A stretch of 63,272 bases of DNA from an uncultured Bacilli bacterium. GTDB lineage: Bacteria > Bacillota_I > Bacilli_A > RF39 > UBA660. The notes beneath the pieces are model-generated. The model did no database searches and was not told where the DNA came from. It saw nothing but the letters and a program-made list of their open reading frames with translations. The first letter of the stretch is position 1; every line of letters begins with the position of its first letter. The position numbers were made by a program, and so were the translations under genes. Positions 5,956 through 53,296 of the stretch are shown here, piece after piece. The stretch lies in the NCBI GenBank assembly GCA_947589515.1, contig CANQBE010000003.1, positions 1-63,272 on the forward strand, given 5' to 3'.

Positions 5956-5978
5956 TAAATGTATAGGAGGTGAAACAA

Positions 5979-6194
5979 ATGAACAACAATTCAAATAACT
6001 CTTCAATGAAGATGAGAGTACCAGGAGCTAAACAAGCTATCGACAAAATGAAATACGAAATCGCTAACGAATTTGGTGTAGCTTTAGGTGCTGATACTAC
6101 TTCTCGTGCTAATGGTAGCGTTGGTGGTGAAATCACTAGACGTTTAGTTCAATCAGGAATGAACAATATTAGTGGAAGTTACCAAAACAAATAA
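5979..6194 (+). CDS. sspA: Alpha/beta-type small acid-soluble spore protein
   Basis: [21 protein letters not shown]...[16 protein letters not shown]; GGAGG RBS before ATG 5979; follows thiI as in B. subtilis. Confidence 0.95.
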
Positions 6195-6220
6195 TGATAT
6201 TAATGTAAATTAATAAAACG

Positions 6221-6256
6221 ATAAAATAAGATGGGTTTCCTATCTTATTTTATTTT
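6221..6256 (+). terminator. sspA terminator
   Basis: ATAAAATAAGAT...ATCTTATTTTAT inverted repeat followed by T's. Confidence 0.7.
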
Positions 6257-6276: not shown

Positions 6277-6305
6277 TTGAAAAAAACTTGATTTTATGAT
6301 ATAAT
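6277..6305 (+). promoter_or_regulatory. sigmaA-type promoter of the HA-repeat gene array
   Basis: TTGAAA-17 nt-TATAAT with extended -10 TG. Confidence 0.7.
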
Positions 6306-6336
6306 AAGCTGCAATTGTATAAGAAATGGGTGGTTA

Positions 6337-7596
6337 GTGATGAATATTAATCAAAAATGGATGGAAAAATATGAATTATTGAAGGAATATAAAGAAGAAT
6401 ATGGTCATATTGATGTTCCAGCCTCATATGAAAAAAATGGAATTAAACTAGGTAGTTGGCTATTAATGCAAAGACAAGCTTATAAGGGAAATAGAAACTA
6501 CAAAATATCTGAAAGCAAAGTCCAATTATTAGAAGAATTAGGAATTAATTGGCAAATACGTAATAAAACCTGGGAAGATTATTATGAACTTTTAAAGGAA
6601 TATAAAAAAGAACATGGTAATATTGATGTCCCAATTTCTTATGAAAAAGATGAAATGAAATTAGGAATTTGGTTATATAATCAAAGACAAATCTATAAAG
6701 GAAAGAAAAGTGGAAGTTTAACAGAAAAACAAAAAGAACTACTAGAAGAGTTAGGAATCAATTGGAAAATAAGAGAAATCAGCATGATTTGGGAAGATTA
6801 TTATGAACTACTAAAAGAATACAAAAAAGAACATGGAAATATTGATGTCCCATATCATTATCAAAAGAATCAAATTAAATTAGGTGCTTGGTTACATAAT
6901 CAAAGACTAGCATATGAACAGTTAGGAACTTGTAAATTAACAGAAAAAAGAATACAATTATTAGAAGAATTGGGAATCAACTGGCACATTTTTGATCAAA
7001 AGTGGAATCAATATTATGAATTATTAAAAGAATATAAGAAAAAATATGGTAATATTAATGTTCCATATTCTTATGAAAAAGATGGAAAAAAATTAGGAAT
7101 CTGGTTATCTAATCAAAAACAAATTTATAATGGAAAAACAAAAGGCAATTTAAATGAAACTAGAATCCAATTATTAGAAGAATTAGGAATGAGTTGGGAC
7201 AAAACACATAGAATATGGCATGACTATTATGAACAATTAAAAGAATATAAAGAAGAACATGGAAATATCGACGTACCAACTTATTATCAAGTAAATCAAA
7301 TAAAATTGGGTGTTTGGTTACATCATCAGAGACAGGCATATAAAGGACAAAAACCATATGTAATCACAAAAAATCAAATAAGATTACTAAATGAATTGAA
7401 TATAGATTGGAGTATTCAAGATACCAAATTTTTACAGAAAACCATAAATGAACAAACACAAGAAAAATACCAACAAATTTTATTAGAACGCGTAAACCAT
7501 ATTATAGATGATTTAGTATATGAAGGTATCAACGATATTGATGCTACCAATCAAAAAGAAATAGAAAGAACCTTGATTAAAAGAATCTGGAGATAG
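6337..7596 (+). CDS. Stand-alone HA (helicase-associated) repeat protein 1: 5 repeats + C-terminal cap
   Basis: Five ~71-aa units W..YYELLKEYK.EHG.IDVP..Y.....LG.WL..QR..Y......T..Q..LLEELG..W, matching the PF03457 pattern; no helicase motifs. Confidence 0.85.
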   Translation: MMNINQKWMEKYELLKEYKEEYGHIDVPASYEKNGIKLGSWLLMQRQAYKGNRNYKISESKVQLLEELGINWQIRNKTWEDYYELLKEYKKEHGNIDVPISYEKDEMKLGIWLYNQRQIYKGKKSGSLTEKQKELLEELGINWKIREISMIWEDYYELLKEYKKEHGNIDVPYHYQKNQIKLGAWLHNQRLAYEQLGTCKLTEKRIQLLEELGINWHIFDQKWNQYYELLKEYKKKYGNINVPYSYEKDGKKLGIWLSNQKQIYNGKTKGNLNETRIQLLEELGMSWDKTHRIWHDYYEQLKEYKEEHGNIDVPTYYQVNQIKLGVWLHHQRQAYKGQKPYVITKNQIRLLNELNIDWSIQDTKFLQKTINEQTQEKYQQILLERVNHIIDDLVYEGINDIDATNQKEIERTLIKRIWR

Positions 7597-7608
7597 AGGT
7601 AATATAGA

Positions 7609-8859
7609 ATGAGTCATAATCAAAAATGGATGGAAAAATATAAATTATTAAAAGAATATCAAAAAGAGTATGGCAATATTGATGTCCCACAATCTTATGA
7701 AAAAGATGGTATGAAGTTAGGACAATGGTTAGCAACGCAAAGAAAAGCATATAAAGGAAAAGGGACTAATAGAATCACTCAAGATCAAATTAAGTTATTA
7801 GAAGAATTAGGAATCCATTGGCAAGTACATAATAAAACATGGGAAGATTATTATGAACTACTAAAAGAATATAAAGAAGAGCATGGAAATATTGATGTTC
7901 CACAAGCTTATGAAAAAAATGGTATCAAGTTAGGAATTTGGTTACATAATCAAAAACAGGCATATAACGGAAATGGACGTAGTAGCATCACTCAAGATCA
8001 AATTAAGTTATTAGAAGAATTAGGAATCCATTGGCAAGTACATAATAAAACATGGGAAGATTATTATGAACTACTAAAAGAATATAAAGAAGAACATGGA
8101 AATATTGATGTTCCAAACTTTTATGAAAAAAATGGTATGAAGTTAGGAAAATGGTTATCTACACAAAGACAAGCATATAAAGGAAATAGACGTAGTAGAA
8201 TCACACAAAATCAAATTAAGTTATTAGAAGAATTAGGAATAAGATGGAATCCTTATGATCAAAAATGGAATGACTACTATGAATTATTAAAAGAATACCA
8301 AGAAGAACATGGAAATATTGATGTTCCAAACTTTTATGAAAAAAATGGTATGAAGTTAGGAAAATGGTTATCTACACAAAGACAAGCATATAAAGGAAAT
8401 AGACGTAGTAGAATCACACAAAATCAAATTAAGTTATTAGAAGAATTAGGAATAAGATGGAATCCTTATGATCAAAAATGGAATGACTACTATGAATTAT
8501 TAAAAGAATACCAAGAAGAACATGGAAATATCGACGTACCAACTTATTATCAAGTAAATCAAATAAATCTAGGTGTTTGGCTACATCATCAGAGACAGGC
8601 ATACAAAGGACAAAAATCATGTGTCATCACAAAAAATCAAATAAGATTACTAAATGAATTAAATATAGATTGGAATCTTCGTGATACGAAATTTTTACAG
8701 AAAACCATAAATGAACAAACACAAGAAAAATACCAACAAGTTTTATTAGAACGTGTAAATCATATTATAGAAGATTTAGTATATGAAGGTATCAACGATA
8801 TTGATGCTACCAATCAAAAAGAAATTGAAAAAGTAATGATAAAGAGAATCTGGAGATAA
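7609..8859 (+). CDS. HA repeat protein 2: 5 repeats + cap
   Basis: Same repeat pattern; repeats 3 and 4 are an exact 213-bp duplication. Confidence 0.85.
   Translation: MSHNQKWMEKYKLLKEYQKEYGNIDVPQSYEKDGMKLGQWLATQRKAYKGKGTNRITQDQIKLLEELGIHWQVHNKTWEDYYELLKEYKEEHGNIDVPQAYEKNGIKLGIWLHNQKQAYNGNGRSSITQDQIKLLEELGIHWQVHNKTWEDYYELLKEYKEEHGNIDVPNFYEKNGMKLGKWLSTQRQAYKGNRRSRITQNQIKLLEELGIRWNPYDQKWNDYYELLKEYQEEHGNIDVPNFYEKNGMKLGKWLSTQRQAYKGNRRSRITQNQIKLLEELGIRWNPYDQKWNDYYELLKEYQEEHGNIDVPTYYQVNQINLGVWLHHQRQAYKGQKSCVITKNQIRLLNELNIDWNLRDTKFLQKTINEQTQEKYQQVLLERVNHIIEDLVYEGINDIDATNQKEIEKVMIKRIWR
8088..8531 (+). repeat. Perfect 213-bp tandem duplication (one HA module)
   Basis: AGAAGAACATGGAAATAT starts at 8088, 8301 and 8514; 8088-8300 equals 8301-8513 by inspection. 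Confidence 0.9.
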
Positions 8860-8890
8860 CAGTAATAATATATAAGGAGGGTCATCACTT

Positions 8891-9502
8891 ATGATTTATA
8901 ATCAGAAATGGATGAGAAAATATGAATTATTAAAAGCATATCAAAAAGAGTATGGCAATATTGATGTACCAACTGATTATGAAAAAGATGGCATCAAATT
9001 AGGAATCTGGTTAGCTAGTCAAAAGCAAGCTTACCGAGGACATGGAAGTAGTGTACTAACAGAAGAAAGAATCAAACTATTAGAAGACTTAGGAATGAAT
9101 TGGGAAAAAAGAGAGAAAAAATGGAATCAATATTATGAATTACTAACAGAATATAAGAAAGAACATGGCAATATTGATGTTCCATACTTTTATGAAAAAA
9201 ATGGAGTTAAATTAGGAATCTGGTTAACAAATCAAAAACAAGCCTATAAAGGACAAGTACCTTGGAAAATAACAGAGAATCAAATCAAATTATTAAATGA
9301 TTTGGAAATAGATTGGAGTCAAAATGATACCAAGTTTTTAAATAGAAAAATAAAAAGCACAACTACAACTACCTATCAACAAATTTTATTAGAACGCATC
9401 AATCATATCATGGATGATTTAGTATATGAAAAGATTAATGATATTGATGCTACCAATCAAAAAGAAATAGAAAAAATTTTGATTAAAAGAATTTGGAGAT
9501 AA
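8891..9502 (+). CDS. HA repeat protein 3: 2 repeats + cap
   Basis: Two HA units, then the DTKFL...LERINHI.DDLVYE...KRIWR cap. Confidence 0.85.
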   Translation: MIYNQKWMRKYELLKAYQKEYGNIDVPTDYEKDGIKLGIWLASQKQAYRGHGSSVLTEERIKLLEDLGMNWEKREKKWNQYYELLTEYKKEHGNIDVPYFYEKNGVKLGIWLTNQKQAYKGQVPWKITENQIKLLNDLEIDWSQNDTKFLNRKIKSTTTTTYQQILLERINHIMDDLVYEKINDIDATNQKEIEKILIKRIWR

Positions 9503-9531
9503 CAGTAATAAGATAGAAGGAGGTTATACTT

Positions 9532-10995
9532 ATGAACAATAATCAGAAATGGATGAAAAAATATGAATTATTAAAAGAATATCAAAAAGAACATGGAAAC
9601 ATTGATGTCCCAACTAATTATGAAAAAGATGGTATTAAGTTAGGACAATGGTTAGCAACGCAAAGACAAGCCCATAAAGGACAAGGAAAGTGTACCATTA
9701 CTCCAGATCAAACGAAGTTACTAGAAGAACTAGGAATCAATTGGCAAGTATATAATAACAGATGGAATTACTATTATGAACAATTAAAAGAATATAAAAA
9801 ACAGCATGGTAATATTGATGTTCCGAAATCCTATGAACAAAATGGAATGGAATTAGGAAAATGGTTAATGAGACAACGAAGAGCTTATCATGGACATAAA
9901 AGATATAAAATAACAGAAAACCAAATTCAATTATTAGAAGAATTAGGAATGAATTGGCAGGTACATGATAAAAAATGGAATGACTATTATGAACTATTAA
10001 AAGAATATAAAGAAGAGTATGGAAATATTGATGTCCCACAAGCTTATGAAAAAGATGGTATGAAGTTAGGAACTTGGCTATCTACCCAAAGACAGACTTA
10101 CCAAGGTAAAACGCAGTGTAAAATGACAGATACTCACATTCAATTATTAGAAGAATTAGGAATGAATTGGCAACTATATGATAAAAGATGGAATGAATAT
10201 TATGAGTTATTAAAAGCATATAAAGAAGAATATGGTAATATTAATATACCTGTTCTTTATGAAACAAAAGGAAAAAAATTAGGATCTTGGTTACATAATC
10301 AAAGAAAATCTTATTATGGAAAAGGAACTTATAGAATTACCCAAGAAAGAATTAAATTGTTAGAAGAATTAGACACCAATTGGAACATGTATGAAAAAAC
10401 TTGGAATGAATGTTATGAATTATTAAAAGAATATCAAGAAGAACATGGTAATATTGATATGCCAACTGATTATGTGAAAGATGGAGTAAAATTAGGAAGT
10501 TGGCTAGCAAGACAAAGATATGTTTACAAAGGTAACGCAAAAGAAAAATTAACGGAAAATCAAGTAAAACTATTAGAACAATTAGGAATGAACTGGAATC
10601 TTCATGATAAAAAATGGAATGAATATTATGAATTATTAAAAGAATATCAAGAAGAACATGGCAATATTGATGTCCCACAATTTTATGAAAAAGATGGTAA
10701 AAAATTATATAATTGGCTACATCATCAAAGACAAGCATATAAAGGACAAGGAAATTGTAGAATCACTCAAAATCAAATCAAATTATTAAATGAGTTAGAG
10801 ATAGATTGGAGTAGTTCTGATACGAGAGTTTTAAATCAAGACATAGTAGAAGAAAACAAAGAAAAATACTATCAAATTTTAGTAAATCGTATCAACCATA
10901 TTATGGATGACTTGATAATGGAAGACATTGATGAAATAAATGAAGGAAATCAAAAAGAAATCGAAAAAGTAATGATTAAAAGAATTTGGAAATAG
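9532..10995 (+). CDS. HA repeat protein 4: 6 repeats + cap
   Basis: Six HA units; the most divergent cap (ends KRIWK). Confidence 0.85.
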   Translation: MNNNQKWMKKYELLKEYQKEHGNIDVPTNYEKDGIKLGQWLATQRQAHKGQGKCTITPDQTKLLEELGINWQVYNNRWNYYYEQLKEYKKQHGNIDVPKSYEQNGMELGKWLMRQRRAYHGHKRYKITENQIQLLEELGMNWQVHDKKWNDYYELLKEYKEEYGNIDVPQAYEKDGMKLGTWLSTQRQTYQGKTQCKMTDTHIQLLEELGMNWQLYDKRWNEYYELLKAYKEEYGNINIPVLYETKGKKLGSWLHNQRKSYYGKGTYRITQERIKLLEELDTNWNMYEKTWNECYELLKEYQEEHGNIDMPTDYVKDGVKLGSWLARQRYVYKGNAKEKLTENQVKLLEQLGMNWNLHDKKWNEYYELLKEYQEEHGNIDVPQFYEKDGKKLYNWLHHQRQAYKGQGNCRITQNQIKLLNELEIDWSSSDTRVLNQDIVEENKEKYYQILVNRINHIMDDLIMEDIDEINEGNQKEIEKVMIKRIWK

Positions 10996-10999
10996 AGGT

Positions 11000-11833
11000 A
11001 TGATAAAAATGAATCATGATCAAAAATGGATGGAGAAATATGAATTATTAAAAGCATACCAAGAAGAGCATGGAAATATTGATGTACCAACTAATTATGA
11101 AAAAGATGGTATTAAGTTAGGACAATGGTTAGTGTATCAACGCGTAGCCTATAATGGAAAAGGAACCTATAAAATAACAGAAGACAGAATTAAATTATTA
11201 GAAAAATTAGGAATGAAATGGAATCTTCATGATAAAAAATGGAATGACTATTATCAATTACTAACAGAATATCAAAAAGAACATGGAAATATCGATGTAC
11301 CAATGTCTTATGAAAAAAATGGAATGAAATTAGGAAAATGGTTAGTTACTCAACGCACTGCTTATAAAGGAATTGGAACTTATAAAAGAACAGGAAAAAG
11401 AATTCAATTATTAGAAAAATTAGGAATGAACTGGCAAATCTATGATAAACAATGGAATGACTATTATGAACGATTAAAAGAATATCAAGAAGAACATGGC
11501 AATATTGATGTTCCAAGATCATATGAAAAGGATGGCATAAATCTAGGAATATGGTTATCTCATCAAAGACAGGCATATAAAGGACAAAAACCATGTGTAA
11601 TCACAAAAAATCAAATAAGATTACTAAATGAATTGAATATAGATTGGAGTATTCAAGATACAAAATTTTTACAGAAAACCATAAATGAACAAACTAAAGA
11701 AAAATACCAACAAGTTTTATTAGAACGTGTAAACCATATCATAGATGACTTGGTATATGAAAGTATTAACGACATAGATACTACAAATCAAAAAGAAATA
11801 GAAAAAATAATGATTAAAAGAATCTGGAGATAG
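11000..11833 (+). CDS. HA repeat protein 5: 3 repeats + cap
   Basis: Three HA units; the true start may be ATG 11009, which has better RBS spacing. Confidence 0.85.
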   Translation: MIKMNHDQKWMEKYELLKAYQEEHGNIDVPTNYEKDGIKLGQWLVYQRVAYNGKGTYKITEDRIKLLEKLGMKWNLHDKKWNDYYQLLTEYQKEHGNIDVPMSYEKNGMKLGKWLVTQRTAYKGIGTYKRTGKRIQLLEKLGMNWQIYDKQWNDYYERLKEYQEEHGNIDVPRSYEKDGINLGIWLSHQRQAYKGQKPCVITKNQIRLLNELNIDWSIQDTKFLQKTINEQTKEKYQQVLLERVNHIIDDLVYESINDIDTTNQKEIEKIMIKRIWR

Positions 11834-11845
11834 AGGTAATATAGA

Positions 11846-13759
11846 ATGAGTCATAATCAAAAATGGATGGAGAAATATGAATTATTAAAAGAATATCAAA
11901 AAGAGTATGGAAATATTGATGTCCCACAATCTTATGAAAAAGATGGTATTAAGTTAGGTCAATGGTTAGCAATGCAAAGACAAGCCTATAAAGGACAAGG
12001 AAAGTGTACTATCACTCAAAATCAAATTCAGTTACTAGAAGAATTAGGGATAAATTGGAATCTTCAGGATAAAAGATGGAATGAATATTATCAATTACTA
12101 ACAGAATATCAAAAAGAACATGGTAATATTGATGTCCCACAATCTTATGAACAAAATGGTATCAAGTTAGGAATTTGGTTACATAATCAAAAACAGGCAT
12201 ATAAAGGAACAGGAAAAGGTAGCATCACACAAGATCAAATTAAGTTATTAGAAGAATTAGGAATGCATTGGAATCTTCATGATAGCAGATGGAATGACTA
12301 TTATAAACAATTACAAGAATATAAAAAAGAATATGGAAATATTGATGTCCCACAATCTTATGAACAAAATGGTATTAAGTTAGGTCAATGGTTATCTACC
12401 CAAAGACAAGCATATAAAGGAAAAGGAAATAGTAGAATCACACAAGATCAAATTAAATTATTAGAAGAATTAGGAATGAATTGGCAGGTAAATGATAAAC
12501 AATGGAATGACTATTATGAATTATTAAAAGAATATAAGAAAGAATATGGTAATATTAATGTTCCATATTCTTATGAAAAAGATGGAAAAAAATTAGGAAT
12601 CTGGTTATCTAGTCAAAAACAAATTTATAATGGAAAAACAAAAGGCAATTTAAATGAAACTAGAATCCAATTATTAGAAGAATTAGGAATGAGTTGGGAC
12701 AAAACACATAGAATATGGAATGACTATTATGAAGAATTAAAAGAATATAAAAAACAGCATGGTAATATTGATGTACCAATTTCTTATGAAAAAGATGAAA
12801 TAAAATTAGGAATTTGGTTATATAATCAAAGACAAGCTTATAAAGGAAATAGACGTAGTAGAATCACTCAAAATCAAATTAAATTATTAGAAGAATTAGG
12901 GATAAATTGGCAGGTAAATGATAAACAATGGAATGACTATTATGAACTATTAAAAGAATATAAAGAAGAGCATGGTAATATTGATGTCCCACAATCTTAT
13001 GAACAAAATGGTATTAAGTTAGGTCAATGGTTATCTACCCAAAGGCGGGCATATAAAGGAAAAGGGACTAATAAAATCACACAAGATCAAATTAAGTTAC
13101 TAGAAGAATTAGGAATGCATTGGAATCTTCGTGATAGCAGATGGAATGACTATTATGAACTATTAAAAGAATATCAAAAAGAATATGGAAATATTGATGT
13201 TGCAGTTACTTATGAAAAAAATGGTATGAAGTTAGGAAAATGGTTATCTACACAAAGACAAGCATATAAAGGAAAAGGAACTAGTAGAATCACACGAGAT
13301 CAAATTAAGTTATTAGAAAAATTAGGAATGAGTTGGGGCAAAACACATAGAATGAGTTGGGACAAAACACATAGAATATGGAATGACTATTATAAAATAT
13401 TAAAAGAATACCAAGAAGAACATGGAAATATCGACGTACCAACATATTATCAAGTAAATCAAATAAAATTAGGTGTCTGGTTACATCATCAAAGACAGGC
13501 ATATAAAGGACAAAAACCATGTGTAATCACAAAAAATCAAATAAGATTACTAAATGAATTGAATATAGATTGGAATCTTCGTGATACGAAATTTTTACAG
13601 AAAACCATAAATGACCAAACACAAGAAAAATACCAACAAGTTTTATTAGAACGTGTAAATCATATCATAGAAGATTTAGTATATGAAGGTATCAATGATA
13701 TTAATGCAACAAATCAAAAAGAAATTGAAAAAATAATGATTAAAAGAATCTGGAGATAA
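11846..13759 (+). CDS. HA repeat protein 6: 8 repeats + cap
   Basis: Eight HA units; contains a 24-bp micro-duplication at 13326-13373. Confidence 0.85.
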   Translation: MSHNQKWMEKYELLKEYQKEYGNIDVPQSYEKDGIKLGQWLAMQRQAYKGQGKCTITQNQIQLLEELGINWNLQDKRWNEYYQLLTEYQKEHGNIDVPQSYEQNGIKLGIWLHNQKQAYKGTGKGSITQDQIKLLEELGMHWNLHDSRWNDYYKQLQEYKKEYGNIDVPQSYEQNGIKLGQWLSTQRQAYKGKGNSRITQDQIKLLEELGMNWQVNDKQWNDYYELLKEYKKEYGNINVPYSYEKDGKKLGIWLSSQKQIYNGKTKGNLNETRIQLLEELGMSWDKTHRIWNDYYEELKEYKKQHGNIDVPISYEKDEIKLGIWLYNQRQAYKGNRRSRITQNQIKLLEELGINWQVNDKQWNDYYELLKEYKEEHGNIDVPQSYEQNGIKLGQWLSTQRRAYKGKGTNKITQDQIKLLEELGMHWNLRDSRWNDYYELLKEYQKEYGNIDVAVTYEKNGMKLGKWLSTQRQAYKGKGTSRITRDQIKLLEKLGMSWGKTHRMSWDKTHRIWNDYYKILKEYQEEHGNIDVPTYYQVNQIKLGVWLHHQRQAYKGQKPCVITKNQIRLLNELNIDWNLRDTKFLQKTINDQTQEKYQQVLLERVNHIIEDLVYEGINDINATNQKEIEKIMIKRIWR

Positions 13760-13856: not shown

Positions 13857-15038
13857 ATGAAAATAATTTCAATTAATGCAGGAAGTAGTTCCTTAAAGTT
13901 TAGTCTATTTGATATGGACAAAAAAGAATTGATCGCATCTGGTTATTTTGAAAGAGTAACCTTAGATGGAAGTTTTTATACGATTAAGTATAATGGAGAA
14001 AAAATACGAGAAGAAGTAGCTATGCCTAATCATACAGTAGCTGTAGAAGTATTACTAGATCGTCTAGTATCAATTGGCATTGTCAATAGCTTAGATGAAA
14101 TTGGTGGTGTTGGACATCGTCTAGTTCATGGAGGAGATAAATATAATCATTCTGTTATGATTACTGATGAAGTCATGGCTGATCTAGAAAAATATTCAGA
14201 ACTTGCACCACTTCATAATCCAGCAAACATCTTAGGAATAGAGGCAATGAAAAAAGCCCTTCCTAATGTACCAATGGTTGGAGTATTTGATACTGCTTTC
14301 CATCAAACTATGGACCGTGTTCAATATTTATATCCAGTTCCATATGAATGGTATACGAAATATGGTGTTCGTAAGTATGGATTCCATGGAACAAGTCACT
14401 GTTATATCAGTAAACAAATACCACGATTACTTGGAAAAGATGAATATAAGGCTATCATCTGTCATTTAGGAAGTGGAGCTAGTTTATCAGCAGTTAAAAA
14501 TGGTAAATGTATTGATACCACAATGGGATTTACACCACTTGCTGGTGTTATGATGGGAACTCGTAGTGGAGATATTGATCCATCTATTATTCCATTTATC
14601 ATGCAAAAAGAAAATAAATCTATCGACGAAGTTATGGATGATTTAAATAAAAAATCAGGATTCTTAGGAATGAGCGAGTATTCTAGTGATTGCCGTGATA
14701 TTGAAAGTGGAATGGCAGAAGGAAATGATTTATGTAAATTAGCCTTCGAAAAATATATGCAATGTGTTGTTAATTATATTGCTGCTTACTATGTTGAACT
14801 TGGTGGATGCGATATTATCTGCTTCACTGCTGGACTTGGAGAAAATGGACCAGCTGTTAGAAGCCGTATTGTTGAAAAACTTGCTTGTCTAGGAATTAAA
14901 CTAGATATTGAAAAGAATAATACTCGTGGAGAAGAAGTAGAGATTAGTAGTAGTGATTCTAGTGTGAAAGTATTCGTAGTACCAACTAACGAGGAATTAA
15001 TGATTGCGGAGGATACATTAGCTCTTATTCAAAAATAG
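13857..15038 (+). CDS. ackA: Acetate kinase
   Basis: INAGSSSLKF, GHRLVHGG, APLHNPAN, FDTAFH, KYGFHGTSH, PTNEEL. Confidence 0.98.
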   Translation: MKIISINAGSSSLKFSLFDMDKKELIASGYFERVTLDGSFYTIKYNGEKIREEVAMPNHTVAVEVLLDRLVSIGIVNSLDEIGGVGHRLVHGGDKYNHSVMITDEVMADLEKYSELAPLHNPANILGIEAMKKALPNVPMVGVFDTAFHQTMDRVQYLYPVPYEWYTKYGVRKYGFHGTSHCYISKQIPRLLGKDEYKAIICHLGSGASLSAVKNGKCIDTTMGFTPLAGVMMGTRSGDIDPSIIPFIMQKENKSIDEVMDDLNKKSGFLGMSEYSSDCRDIESGMAEGNDLCKLAFEKYMQCVVNYIAAYYVELGGCDIICFTAGLGENGPAVRSRIVEKLACLGIKLDIEKNNTRGEEVEISSSDSSVKVFVVPTNEELMIAEDTLALIQK

Positions 15039-51100: not shown

Positions 51101-53296
51101 ATGGTAACAAGTTTAGAATTAAAAGAAGTATTACAACATTATCTAAGTTTAGAACAAGTTAATTCCTTCCTAAATAAAAAAATCAATACTTTATGTAAAC
51201 GGGGAAATATTAATAATATTGATAAAATATTAAAAGTACTTCAAAAATACCAATTATTAAATTTGGTATTACTATGTCCAACTATATTAGTCCAAGGAAA
51301 CAGCCAGGAAATCAAAAATATTTTAAATTTATTAGAAAGTAAGGGTTTATTAGGATTAATAAACACTTGCCCAACTATATTAGCCCAAGGAAAAAGTCAA
51401 GAGATAGAAAAAATTTTAAAATTATTAGAAAGTAAGGGTTTATTAGGATTAATAAACACTTGTTCATCTATATTAGTTTTTGGAAACAGTCAAGAAATCA
51501 AAAATATTTTATGCTTGCTAGAAAGTAAAAATTTATTAGGATTAGTAAACACCTGTCCATATATATTAGCCCAAGGAAAAATTCAAGAGATAGAAAAAAT
51601 TTTAAAATTATTAGAAAGTAAGAATTTATTAGAACTAATCAATACTTGTCCATCTATATTAGCCAAAGGAAAAAGCAAGGAAATCAAAAATATTTTAAAC
51701 CTATTAGAAAGTAAAGGTTTATTAGGATTGGTAAACACCTGTCCAACTATATTAGCCCAAGGAAAAATTCAAGAGATAGAAAAAAATTTAAAATTATTAG
51801 AAAGTAAAAATTTATTAGGATTAGTAAATACTTGCCCAAGCATATTAGCTCAAGGAAAAAGTCAAGAAATCAAAAATATTTTAAGTTTATTAGAAAGTAA
51901 GAACTTATTAGGATTACTGAAAACTTGTCCAACTATATTAGTAAAGGGAAACAGCCAAGAAATCAAAAATATTTTAAACCTATTAGAAAGTAAAGGTTTA
52001 TTAGGATTGGTAAACACCTGTTCATCTATATTAGCCCAAGGAAAAATTCAAGAGATAGAAAAAATTTTAAAATTATTGGAAAGTAAGAATTTATTAGAAC
52101 TAATCAATACTTGTTCAACTATATTAGCTCAAGGAAACAGTCAAGAAATCAAAAATATTTTATGCTTGTTAGAAAGTAAGAACTTATTAGGATTACTGAA
52201 AACTTGTCCAACTATATTAGCAAAGGGAAACAGTCAAGAAATCAAAAATATTTTAAATTTATTAAATGATAAGAGTTTATTAGGATTAATTAATATTTGT
52301 CCATCTATATTAGCCCAAGGAAGAAGTCAAGAAATCGAAAAAATTTTAAATTTATTAGAAGGTAAGAACTTATTAGGATTAGTAAATATATATCCAACAA
52401 TATTAGCCCAAGGAAACAGCCAAGAAATCAAAAATATTTTAAGTTTATTAGAAAAATATAATATTGATTTAGAATTACTTTCACCATTTCCCTATTTGTT
52501 ACTTTCCTATTCTAAAGTAAGATCTATTTTAGAACATGATCGTAATCATTTAACAGAAGAAGAATTTTGGATGAATGTTAGAATCTATTTAAAAATAACC
52601 GATCATTATAATAAAATCTATAATCAGGAACAAATCATAGAATTATCTCAAATTTTAAAAATAGATACCAATCAATTATTAGAAAATATTATGGGAAAAA
52701 GTATTAATTTAAAAGAAGTACTTAAACAAAAGGGTTCTATTTGGATAGGGGATTATATTTCTTGTACGAAAGAACAGCTACAAGAAAATCAAATATTAAT
52801 TATAAAGATTACGGAAATGGTTACTAAAAGTTTTATCAAAAAACATAAAGATTTCAATATAGATTATTCTGATTTATATGATTATGTATTAGATATATTA
52901 ATCAATCGATGTGGTAATCTATTGATTAATACGACTTCAGAAGAAAATTTGAGAAAAGCGTTATATATATATCTAATGAAATACTGCTATCACATGATTT
53001 CAAATAGAAAGTATGTAGATTATGAAAAAATAAGTAACATTCAAAAATATAGTAGTCAAGATTTTTATCAAAGTAATTTTGTACAAAATTATTCCTTTTT
53101 AACAGAAGAGGAACAGTATTTTTTAGAGAAAATGTCTCAATATATAGAATTGGGTGGAGACTACATGAGATTATTAAAAGAAGAATGGAATTTAACAGAA
53201 GAAGAAATTCAAGAAAAAATGAAAACGATTAAAGAAAAAATATCTAGTAGCAATTATCTATCGGATATTGGTAAGAGCAAGTACTTAAAAAAGTAA
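51101..53296 (+). CDS. Protein with 13 tandem 31-aa helical repeats (mTERF/TALE-like) and a sigma-70-like C-terminus
   Basis: Repeat consensus LLGLVNTCPTILAQGNSQEIKNILNLLESKN (aa 52-454); aa ~557-637 and ~667-714 resemble sigma regions 2 and 4. Confidence 0.6.
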   Translation: MVTSLELKEVLQHYLSLEQVNSFLNKKINTLCKRGNINNIDKILKVLQKYQLLNLVLLCPTILVQGNSQEIKNILNLLESKGLLGLINTCPTILAQGKSQEIEKILKLLESKGLLGLINTCSSILVFGNSQEIKNILCLLESKNLLGLVNTCPYILAQGKIQEIEKILKLLESKNLLELINTCPSILAKGKSKEIKNILNLLESKGLLGLVNTCPTILAQGKIQEIEKNLKLLESKNLLGLVNTCPSILAQGKSQEIKNILSLLESKNLLGLLKTCPTILVKGNSQEIKNILNLLESKGLLGLVNTCSSILAQGKIQEIEKILKLLESKNLLELINTCSTILAQGNSQEIKNILCLLESKNLLGLLKTCPTILAKGNSQEIKNILNLLNDKSLLGLINICPSILAQGRSQEIEKILNLLEGKNLLGLVNIYPTILAQGNSQEIKNILSLLEKYNIDLELLSPFPYLLLSYSKVRSILEHDRNHLTEEEFWMNVRIYLKITDHYNKIYNQEQIIELSQILKIDTNQLLENIMGKSINLKEVLKQKGSIWIGDYISCTKEQLQENQILIIKITEMVTKSFIKKHKDFNIDYSDLYDYVLDILINRCGNLLINTTSEENLRKALYIYLMKYCYHMISNRKYVDYEKISNIQKYSSQDFYQSNFVQNYSFLTEEEQYFLEKMSQYIELGGDYMRLLKEEWNLTEEEIQEKMKTIKEKISSSNYLSDIGKSKYLKK
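51254..52462 (+). repeat. 13 x 93-bp coding tandem repeat
   Basis: 31-codon periodicity visible in both protein and DNA. Confidence 0.95.

What the first reader, a model, noticed from the sequence alone, without database searches (positions are those of the whole stretch)
6337..13560. Hypervariable di-residue in the LGxWL-XX-QR helix of the HA repeats suggests a recognition code
Seen: XX by gene is LM,YN,HN,SN,HH / AT,HN,ST,ST,HH / AS,TN / AT,MR,ST,HN,AR,HH / VY,VT,SH / AM,HN,ST,SS,YN,ST,ST,HH. The residue before W co-varies (K or Q with ST; I with xN; V with HH). First repeats carry a small or hydrophobic first residue, and four of six terminal repeats are HH. A ~185-bp module is nearly identical between gene 1 (7045-7230) and gene 6 (12545-12730), and one of its very few differences falls exactly on this site (AAT Asn at 7111 versus AGT Ser at 12611). 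N, H, T, S and R are typical base-contacting residues. Inference: each module reads a short sequence via this helix, so module order would define the target.
Basis: partly seen in the sequence, partly recalled or inferred. Interest (0 to 1): 0.8.

Follow-up and report, generated by a model that had tools for sequence, protein, structure and literature searches.

The report
Variable contact residues in HA-repeat proteins
Six neighbouring genes of an uncultured gut bacterium encode chains of a small, probably DNA-binding module whose two flagged residues are exposed, fast-changing and chemically suited to touching nucleic acid, but nothing yet shows that they spell a readable recognition code.

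Summary

XX lie mid-helix 2, on its exposed ridge, between invariant W34-L35 and Q38-R39. They are among the most variable positions: 7th and 9th of 71 here, 4th and 14th in 219 independent modules. They are not uniquely variable; columns 22, 33, 48 and 68 equal or exceed them.

Their alphabet is restricted. N/T/S/H make up 59% against 19% at other exposed sites, and D/E 4% against 39%. They sit on a basic, acid-free face (+4, against -3 for the rest of the module), which fits nucleic-acid contact.

- Substitution is near neutral (pN/pS 1.1-1.2, not significant).
- Alleles within species keep XX (59 of 64 sites invariant).
- In another HA subfamily, helix-2 residues are module-specific but conserved among orthologues.
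- The co-variation with position 33 is not reproduced in independent homologues. Linkage inside sub-module conversion cassettes explains it.
- The HH terminal repeats are one conserved, cap-proximal module type.

I found no rigid solenoid, no vocabulary shared between species and no one-module-one-word rule. XX are plausible ligand-contact residues of a rare, helicase-free HA-array family with an unnamed C-terminal cap. The code itself remains unproven (about 10%).

The parts
6220..6254 (+). Intrinsic terminator of the upstream SASP gene; it marks the 5' boundary of the HA operon
   Evidence: 16-bp stem followed by a T run
6277..6305 (+). Sigma-A-type promoter of the HA operon (TTGAAA-17-TATAAT with an extended -10 TG)
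   Evidence: 11 of 12 consensus matches, the best in the region. This is a consensus match only.
6337..7596 (+). HA gene 1: 5 modules plus cap. XX codon pairs start at 6463 (LM), 6676 (YN), 6895 (HN), 7108 (SN) and 7321 (HH). The true start is probably ATG 6340.
7609..8859 (+). HA gene 2: 5 modules plus cap. XX at 7732 (AT), 7945 (HN), 8158 (ST), 8371 (ST) and 8584 (HH).
8891..9502 (+). HA gene 3: 2 modules plus cap. XX at 9014 (AS) and 9227 (TN).
9532..10995 (+). HA gene 4: 6 modules plus cap. XX at 9655 (AT), 9868 (MR), 10081 (ST), 10294 (HN), 10507 (AR) and 10720 (HH).
11000..11833 (+). HA gene 5: 3 modules plus cap. XX at 11132 (VY), 11345 (VT) and 11558 (SH). Its last module is a mosaic: columns 38-71 match the HH terminal type, columns 22-37 do not.
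   Evidence: AF2 model pLDDT 83.9.
11846..13759 (+). HA gene 6: 8 modules plus cap. XX at 11969 (AM), 12182 (HN), 12395 (ST), 12608 (SS), 12821 (YN), 13034 (ST), 13247 (ST) and 13484 (HH).
7408..7593 (+). C-terminal cap of gene 1: 62 aa, three predicted helices, ending KRIWR. The equivalent caps lie at 8671-8856, 9314-9499, 10807-10992, 11645-11830 and 13571-13756.
   Evidence: Mean column identity is 84% among the six caps. No Pfam or PDB relative was found. The cap is not a degenerate HA module. It occurs in 59 clusters of 1.84 billion proteins, always C-terminal to 1-9 HA modules.
7012..7251 (+). Recent gene-conversion or duplication tract shared with 12512-12751. There are 4 mismatches in about 240 nt, at 7042, 7112, 7219 and 7234. 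It is not in register with module borders.
   Evidence: g1m4 and g6m4 are 98.1% identical
12512..12751 (+). Partner copy of the conversion tract, in gene 6

Best explanation
The six genes form one operon for cytoplasmic, helicase-free HA-repeat proteins.

Each 71-aa module is an autonomous three-helix bundle with a charge dipole. Its basic, acid-free face has three parts:
- the turn at columns 22-23;
- the exposed ridge of helix 2 (columns 33, 36, 37 and 40), held in place by the invariant core residues W34 and L35 and followed by invariant Q38-R39;
- the Lys-rich loop 43-49.

This face most likely binds nucleic acid. DNA is the candidate, by analogy with what is proposed for HA domains.

XX are two of about five to nine candidate contact positions. 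They vary between modules within a restricted polar alphabet (N, T, S, H, R), so they probably tune what each module prefers. This is more like the several helix positions of zinc fingers or homeodomains than a TALE di-residue.

Arrays diversify by module duplication, sub-module gene conversion and point substitution, and they turn over quickly between species. The invariant cap probably couples arrays to each other or to a common partner.

Shown: the anatomy, exposure by helix geometry, charge polarity, restricted alphabet, evolutionary rates and mosaicism. Inferred: nucleic-acid binding, a specificity role for XX, and the cap's function.
For: - HA membership: 29 stretches over Pfam's cut-off.
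- AF2: a single module has pLDDT 86.8 and pTM 0.71, with helices at columns 2-15, 31-42 and 52-60. The three-module protein has pLDDT 83.9 but pTM 0.48, so the modules are flexibly linked.
- Variability: columns 33, 22, 48 and 36 are the top four of 71 in 219 non-redundant modules from 82 other proteins. Column 37 is 14th.
- Acidic residues are 0-5% at columns 22, 33, 36, 37, 40 and 43-49, against 40-64% at exposed columns of helices 1 and 3.
- Net charge of columns 22-49 is +4.1, against -3.2 for the rest of the module.
- At XX, N/T/S/H make up 59% against 19% elsewhere (OR 6, p~1e-63), D/E 4% against 39%, and K 4% against 20%.
- XX evolve at about the synonymous rate (pN/pS 1.13 and 1.17), against 0.42 for the whole module, in 49 independent sister pairs.
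- XX are stable among alleles within species: 59 of 64 sites are invariant.
- In a 4-module HA subfamily, helix-2 exposed residues differ between modules (0.71-1.0) but vary little among orthologues (0.08-0.36). They vary less than exposed sites of helices 1 and 3.
- Sub-module mosaics carry the 24-44 segment as a block.
- Literature: HA domains are proposed DNA binders, and tandem HA arrays occur on TtrA and on the target selector TniQ, and on a PLD nuclease.
Against: - No experimental or modelled complex with nucleic acid exists. The PDB holds only the free 2KTA domain.
- Foldseek found no DNA-binding structural neighbour.
- Model coordinates were not obtainable, so exposure rests on helix geometry and conservation periodicity.
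- Whole-protein pI is only 6.6-9.0.
- Near-neutral rates at XX are also what relaxed constraint would give.
- Loop and linker positions are equally variable.
- No target sequence is known.
Confidence: 0.5

Rival explanations
1. Each HA module reads a short nucleic-acid word through helix 2. XX (with column 33) acts as the code, so module order spells the target, as in TALE, PUF or PPR proteins or zinc-finger arrays.
For: - XX are exposed, polar and acid-free, and sit next to invariant Q-R.
- The same 33/36/37 triplets (I-HN, I-YN, K-ST, Q-ST, Q-AT) recur in different genes on different flanks. Meanwhile neighbouring modules with about 80% identical scaffolds carry different triplets.
- Helix-2 residues are conserved among orthologues in another subfamily.
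- HA arrays are fused to target selectors such as TniQ.
Against: - Variation is spread over about 25 of 71 columns rather than focused on XX.
- There are 69 different di-residues in 131 modules, and the two positions are close to independent.
- Sister species share no vocabulary or order, even where ackA is 97% identical.
- Co-variation is not reproduced.
- Positive selection is not significant (XX p=0.13).
- The linkers look flexible (pTM 0.48).
- Earlier notes of this scan priced similar 'code' readings at 3-6%. These are AI notes, not evidence.
Confidence: 0.1
2. The proteins are non-specific, multivalent nucleic-acid binders (nucleoid-associated or coating proteins). The basic face binds the backbone, and XX drift freely within a 'no acid, small polar' constraint without encoding specificity.
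For: - Rates at XX are near neutral.
- Other loop and linker sites are equally variable.
- Arrays turn over rapidly, and the operon is absent from 13 of 25 species of the genus, which argues against conserved targets.
- The promoter looks strong and constitutive.
Against: - K, the typical backbone binder and 20% of other exposed sites, is depleted to 4% at XX, while N/T/S/H are enriched.
- Helix-2 residues are module-specific and conserved among orthologues in another subfamily.
- XX are kept among alleles within species.
- Distinct triplets persist on homogenised scaffolds.
Confidence: 0.25
3. The variable face recognises proteins or another non-nucleic-acid ligand, for example invader or partner proteins in a conflict system. 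The arrays would then be fast-evolving adaptors that dock through the cap.
For: - Distribution is patchy and restricted to one genus, with 0-37 modules per genome.
- The HA genes occupy a variable slot in a conserved housekeeping neighbourhood.
- Paralogue turnover is fast.
- The cap is conserved, as a docking module would be.
Against: - There are no PADLOC or informative PHROG matches, and no neighbouring effector, nuclease or helicase.
- The +4 acid-free face and the HA literature favour nucleic acid.
Confidence: 0.12
4. The pattern is an artefact: a mis-assembled repeat region, or decaying non-functional genes.
For: - This is a MAG with 57 contigs.
- A 2408-nt contig elsewhere encodes a chimera-like three-module variant, P0009.
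Against: - All 29 modules are open, with an intact scaffold.
- Module-wide omega is 0.42.
- Most modules are no more than 80% identical at the DNA level, so they can be assembled.
- Syntenic intact arrays occur in several species, with many intact alleles.
Confidence: 0.03

Closest known systems
HA (helicase-associated) domain, Pfam PF03457. Solved example: PDB 2KTA, Bacteroides vulgatus BVU_0683 residues 627-691 (Mills et al. 2013, cited in PMC12191111).
   Same: All 29 modules match the HA profile over its whole length. 2KTA aligns with the module profile across 62 residues, including G-W-C-HT-Q-R, so XX there is HT. The fold is three helices.
   Different: No helicase or other enzymatic domain is attached or encoded nearby. 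The arrays are split over six tandem genes. Every protein ends in a 62-aa cap that matches no described family.
Tandem HA arrays on Streptomyces TtrA and on clade-2 telomeric Tn7-like TniQ target selectors (bioRxiv 10.1101/2024.11.13.623437; also archaeal/bacterial TniQ-HA, 10.1101/2025.07.27.667033)
   Same: Several HA modules in a row are proposed, though not shown, to recognise DNA features.
   Different: Those arrays are appendages of a helicase or a transposition protein. The authors state that what they recognise is unknown. No variable-residue analysis or code has been published, as far as the held library shows.
C2H2 zinc-finger arrays (for example KRAB-ZNF families). This is a comparison of how it works, from established knowledge.
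   Same: Both are beads-on-a-string arrays of small autonomous modules. In both, several positions on one face of a helix are hypervariable. Arrays evolve by module duplication and conversion, and the repertoire turns over fast between related species.
   Different: The fold is unrelated and has no zinc ligands. The module is 71 aa rather than 28. DNA contact by the variable helix face is not demonstrated here.
Homeodomain recognition helix (I47-W48-F49-Q50-N51-R52-R53-M54). This is an analogy from established knowledge.
   Same: The local pattern is the same: x-W-[F/L]-x-x-[Q/R]-R-x. The aromatic and aliphatic pair is buried, and positions i, i+3, i+4 and i+7 are exposed: homeodomain 47/50/51/54, which contact bases, against HA 33/36/37/40.
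   Different: In HA it is the second of three helices, followed by a 9-residue loop, so it is not a helix-turn-helix. Foldseek detected no fold similarity. This is a resemblance only.
TALE repeats with the repeat-variable di-residue
   Same: Both have tandem modules with two adjacent variable residues of polar character.
   Different: TALE units are 33-35 aa and near-identical except for the RVD. They stack into a rigid superhelix and read one base each. Here the modules are 71-aa bundles that average 71% identity, with about 25 variable columns and flexible linkers.

Membership tests
Pfam HA (PF03457) | Match to the HA profile above the gathering score (28.4 bits) | tested here: met
   Each gene scores 128-493 bits, with 2-8 stretches. 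There are 29 separate matches of 63-80 bits.
Pfam HA (PF03457) | Three-helix fold as in 2KTA | tested here: met
   AF2 gives helices at columns 2-15, 31-42 and 52-60, with pLDDT 86.8. The profile aligns to 2KTA at E=2.8e-4. Foldseek did not recover 2KTA itself.
HA-domain SF2 helicases ('helicase associated domain protein') | An SF2 helicase core in the same polypeptide | tested here: not met
   None of the six proteins has a helicase domain. The cap family never exceeds 688 aa and carries only HA.
TALE / TALE-like (BurrH, Bat) | 33-35-aa near-identical repeats with variation focused on residues 12/13, forming a continuous solenoid | tested here: not met
   The period is 71 aa. Mean column identity is 71%. 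About 25 columns exceed 2 bits of entropy. pTM is 0.48 for three modules.
TALE-, PUF-, PPR- or ZF-type recognition code (functional class) | Variable residues contact bases | not testable with these tools
   No protein-nucleic-acid modelling was available, no coordinates could be exported, and the PDB holds no complex.
TALE-, PUF-, PPR- or ZF-type recognition code (functional class) | Candidate code residues are the most variable and positively selected positions | tested here: inconclusive
   Ranks are 7th and 9th in the window, and 4th and 14th in homologues. pN/pS is 1.13-1.17, with p=0.13.
TALE-, PUF-, PPR- or ZF-type recognition code (functional class) | Code residues conserved in orthologous modules while differing between modules | tested here: inconclusive
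   This is met in a distant 4-module HA subfamily. Alleles within species keep XX. But no orthologous arrays are recognisable between species of this family.
Known anti-phage defence proteins (PADLOC) | Match to a defence-system model | tested here: not met
   No matches.
Diversity-generating (targeted hypermutation) systems | Variable sites polymorphic among near-identical alleles | tested here: not met
   XX are polymorphic at 5 of 64 sites, against 6.3% for all module sites.

The most novel reading that the evidence does not exclude
HA modules would be a fourth natural class of programmable nucleic-acid readers. In this reading a five-residue patch (columns 22, 23, 33, 36, 37) on a basic face sets each 71-aa module's preferred word. 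Arrays are re-written by sub-module cassette exchange. The KRIWR cap assembles the six paralogues into combinatorial oligomers. That would give tiny-genome gut Bacilli a fast-evolving DNA-targeting repertoire analogous to KRAB zinc fingers.
Probability: 0.1. Interest if true: 0.85.

Novelty: new variant of a known kind. Interest (0 to 1): 0.45.

Why it matters
HA (PF03457) is a widespread domain with no established function, one free-domain structure and no known binding mode. It is attached to helicases, nucleases, sigma factors and transposon target selectors.

This work defines a candidate ligand face for the domain: a basic, acid-free surface with a restricted polar alphabet. It also gives a short list of candidate specificity positions (22, 23, 33, 36, 37, 40). 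That makes the question 'what do HA arrays recognise?' directly testable with small constructs.

If the positions do set sequence preference, HA arrays would become a new modular DNA-targeting scaffold, and that would explain how HA-fused TniQ, TtrA and nucleases find their targets. If they do not, the family is still a rare, undescribed architecture (helicase-free arrays plus an unnamed cap), but of ordinary interest.

Tried and rejected
- **Fold search.** Foldseek of the 274-aa model and of a single module against the PDB gave nothing below E=2, not even 2KTA. No fold-based inference about a DNA-binding mode was possible.
- **Model coordinates.** They are not exported to the Python box, so solvent accessibility and electrostatics could not be computed. 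I used helix geometry and composition instead.
- **Ancestral states.** I replaced a SLAC-type count with 49 phylogenetically disjoint sister pairs.
- **Key paper.** The 2KTA paper (PMC3637686, PMID 23160728) is not held. I know its DNA-binding statement only from its title as cited in PMC12191111.
- **Related loci.** The search for related loci with the alignment and with gene 5 found nothing. With P0003 it returned only two rabbit-gut 'uncultured Bacilli' MAGs.
- **The cap.** It has no Pfam or PDB relative and is not a degenerate HA module.
- **Defence and phage libraries.** PADLOC and PHROGs were uninformative.
- **Coupling between columns.** Mutual information between columns 33, 36 and 37 falls only in the top 3-5% of pairs. 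I rejected this as evidence of functional coupling because the codons lie within 15 nt and travel together in conversion tracts.
- **HH as a stop word.** I rejected the idea that HH marks a code 'stop word'. It belongs to one conserved terminal module type (TY..V..HH) found in four species.

Full report
**What is there**

Between a small acid-soluble spore protein gene (5970-6194) and ackA (13857-15038) lie six co-oriented genes, separated by only 4-31 nt. The SASP gene has its own terminator at 6220-6254. A strong sigma-A-type promoter (6277-6305; TTGAAA-17-TATAAT with an extended -10 TG) precedes the six genes. No terminator-like site was found inside the six-gene block.

Pfam assigns 5, 5, 2, 6, 3 and 8 HA (PF03457) stretches to the genes and no other credible domain. 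These 29 modules are the only HA matches in the 1.1-Mb, 28% GC, 87%-complete genome. The period is 71 aa (213 nt). Each protein ends in a 62-aa tail...NQKEIEK..IKRIWR.

**Checking the observation**

A pattern search recovers exactly 29 L[G/Y]xWL-XX-Q motifs.

I number module columns from the first Trp, so W34-L35-X36-X37-Q38-R39. On this numbering, 15 columns are invariant in the window.

7045-7230 and 12545-12730 differ at two bases. One is 7112 A/G, which is Asn/Ser at column 37. The tract runs from about 7012 to 7251 and is out of register with module borders, so it is a recent conversion or duplication. With only two differences, a hit on XX has a chance probability of about 6% and carries little weight.

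**How variable are XX?**

- In the window, columns 36 and 37 have entropies of 2.51 and 2.44 bits. That is 7th and 9th of 71, behind columns 22, 68, 47, 67, 33 and 23.
- I extracted modules from other proteins that carry the same cap.
  - In 131 non-redundant modules the order is 33 > 22 > 36, with 37 in 14th place.
  - In 219 non-redundant modules from 82 proteins the order is 33, 22, 48, 36, 68, 23 ..., with 37 again 14th.

So XX are truly among the fastest positions, but they belong to a wider variable set. That set comprises the turn at 22-23, column 33, XX, column 40, loop 45-49 and linker 66-68. The TALE-like picture of one variable di-residue on a constant scaffold does not apply.

**Where XX sit**

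AlphaFold2 models gene 5 at pLDDT 83.9 and a single module at pLDDT 86.8 with pTM 0.71. Each module has helices at columns 2-15, 31-42 and 52-60. XX are therefore mid-helix 2, in a block with pLDDT 91.

On a 100-degree-per-residue wheel, L31, W34, L35, Q38, A41 and Y42 fall on one side. Columns 33, 36, 37 and 40 fall on the opposite, most exposed ridge. This is my inference from the DSSP string, because coordinates could not be exported.

The three-module model has pTM 0.48, so inter-module geometry is undefined. This points to beads on a string rather than a solenoid.

**Chemistry of the face**

- In the independent homologue modules, acidic residues make up 0-5% at columns 22, 33, 36, 37, 40, 43 and 45-49. 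At exposed columns of helices 1 and 3 they make up 40-64%.
- Columns 22-49 carry +4.1 net charge per module. The rest carries -3.2.
- At XX, N/T/S/H make up 59% against 19% at other exposed variable columns (OR 6, p~1e-63). D/E are 4% against 39%, and K is 4% against 20%.

XX are therefore not a free surface. They vary within a small polar, H-bonding, non-acidic alphabet on a basic face. This fits contact with nucleic acid. It also fits the published proposal that HA domains bind DNA (title of Mills et al. 2013 as cited; discussion). It does not prove that bases are read.

**Selection**

- Over all module pairs in the window, pN relative to the overall pS is 1.40 at column 36 and 1.14 at column 37. 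It is 1.48 at column 22 and 1.34 at column 33. The module-wide ratio is 0.49.
- I then used 114 codon-aligned modules from the window and 12 loci of related genomes, taken from 129 matches, and 49 disjoint sister pairs. The ratios are 1.38 (column 22, p=0.017 uncorrected), 1.19 (48), 1.17 (37), 1.13 (36) and 1.08 (33). The module-wide ratio is 0.42.
- XX alone are not significantly above 1 (p=0.13). The post-hoc patch 22+33+36+37 gives p=0.015.
- Among 88 distinct alleles of ten orthologous genes (86-97% identity; 32 modules), XX are polymorphic at 5 of 64 sites, against 6.3% for all module sites. Strains of a species keep their XX, and there is no targeted hypermutation.
- In a distant, GC-rich, four-module HA subfamily with true orthologues, helix-2 exposed residues differ completely between modules. 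They vary less among orthologues (0.08-0.36) than exposed residues of helices 1 and 3 (0.5-0.8).

Taken together, helix-2 residues are stable in orthologues and alleles and replaced quickly after duplication. That is the behaviour expected of ligand-specifying residues. It is also compatible with relaxed constraint.

**The co-variation and the positional rules**

The in-window associations are real: K/Q with ST, I with xN, V with HH. In independent homologues the first two vanish (p=0.29, 1.0 and 0.59), and only V~HH persists weakly. APC-corrected mutual information puts 33-36, 33-37 and 36-37 only in the top 3-5% of column pairs.

Pairwise comparisons show why. Modules are mosaics. The segment at about columns 24-44 travels as a block between genes, as in I-HN, I-YN, K-ST and Q-ST. 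Flanking segments are homogenised within a gene. The last module of gene 5 is a mosaic. Its columns 38-65 match the HH terminal modules residue for residue, and its linker matches that of gene 1. It carries a different 22-37 segment. Codons 33, 36 and 37 span 15 nt, so their co-inheritance is expected.

The HH terminal repeats are one module lineage (TY..V..HH, next to the cap). It is found in genes 1, 2 and 6 and in three other species. Terminal modules of other homologues carry NT, NH, TT, QS and others. The small or hydrophobic first residue of first repeats is likewise a local lineage trait. First modules elsewhere are mostly NN or HN.

**Evolutionary context**

- The same slot (thiI-sasP-[HA genes]-ackA-nrnA) holds three HA genes (5+12+5 modules) in a rabbit-gut 'uncultured Bacilli' MAG.
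- In a species whose AckA is 97% identical, it holds two HA genes plus an unrelated 1337-aa repeat protein.
- There the flanks are 84-85% identical at the DNA level, but the HA region aligns only at 69-78% and ambiguously. Apart from V-HH, no XX triplet is shared.
- Twelve of 25 species of the genus carry HA modules, and counts across the genus range from 0 to 37. None of 16 genomes from the rest of the order and class carries any.
- HA-negative species keep the flanks but hold other genes in the slot.
- The cap profile finds only 59 clusters among 1.84 billion representative proteins. It is always at the C-terminus, and every hit of nine examined that matched a Pfam family carried only HA modules (1-9 of them); one 132-aa hit matched none.
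- The cap has no Pfam or PDB relative and is not a degenerate HA module.
- There is no defence-system or informative phage-family match.

**Interpretation**

The best-supported reading (about 0.5) is a family of cytoplasmic nucleic-acid-binding arrays. Each module's basic face would be the contact surface. That face comprises the 22-23 turn, the helix-2 ridge 33/36/37/40 and the Lys-rich loop. XX would be two of several residues that tune module preference.

The closest working analogies are zinc-finger arrays and the homeodomain recognition helix. The homeodomain's x-W-F-x-x-R-R-x pattern puts positions 47/50/51/54 in the groove, just as HA would put 33/36/37/40. These are analogies from established knowledge, not homology.

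The strict 'module order spells the target' code remains possible, at about 0.1. Several findings weigh against it:
- variation is diffuse;
- species share no vocabulary;
- selection is not significant;
- the modelled arrays are flexible.

Non-specific multivalent binding (about 0.25) and protein recognition (about 0.12) are not excluded.

**Limits**

- No complex modelling was possible.
- No coordinates could be exported.

Noticed in passing
L043:6278-10291 (G004, sister species; no counterpart in the window, where only 97 nt separate gene 6 from ackA): A 1337-aa ORF sits directly after the HA genes. It has about 13 tandem ~78-aa repeats (QSIYDYFTEEEKAYVTERIEWWKTNNP...LT.EEQ..W..IL.NLKQYVSKRKNG) and an HTH-looking C-terminal region. 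It has no real Pfam match. This is a second, different repeat-array protein in the same variable slot.
   Followed up: partly
window 6337-6342: Gene 1 more likely starts at ATG 6340 than at GTG 6337. ATG 6340 is preceded by the RBS-like GGGTGG at 6328-6333 and gives MNINQKWM, which matches the other five genes.
   Followed up: partly
window ~13331-13378 and ~6784-6789: A 24-nt tandem duplication (MSWGKTHR/MSWDKTHR) lies at the junction of modules 7 and 8 of gene 6. A 6-nt insertion lies between modules 2 and 3 of gene 1. Both break the 213-nt period.
   Followed up: no
P0009 (277 aa, on a 2408-nt contig): This protein reads as gene 6 module 3, then a gene 1 module 4 type (SN), then a gene 1/2 terminal module, then the cap. 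It is either a strain with a recombined array or a collapsed assembly of this locus.
   Followed up: no
L044, L045 (G001, G018; HA-negative species of the genus): The thiI-sasP...ackA neighbourhood is kept. The slot between sasP and ackA holds an ackA paralogue (51-53% identity) and other genes instead of HA arrays. It is a variable slot in a housekeeping region.
   Followed up: partly
window 7160-7357, 8429-8620, 9737-10039, 10352-10738, 11346-11594, 13305-13520 (- strand): Repeated antisense ORFs of 63-128 aa lie inside the HA genes. They recur because the sense DNA is repetitive, and nothing suggests they are genes.
   Followed up: no
P0068-P0082 (GC-rich organisms, about 293-310 aa): A cap-less four-module HA protein subfamily with clear orthologues. 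Module 1 helix 2 (LGRWIERQRAKY) is invariant in all eight orthologues compared. It is useful material for testing HA ligand contacts.
   Followed up: partly
window 51101-53296: An earlier first-reader note of this scan reports a 31-aa repeat array fused to sigma-70-like regions in the same window. Other notes report HA arrays fused to sigma factors in similar tiny-genome gut bacteria. I did not examine this.
   Followed up: no
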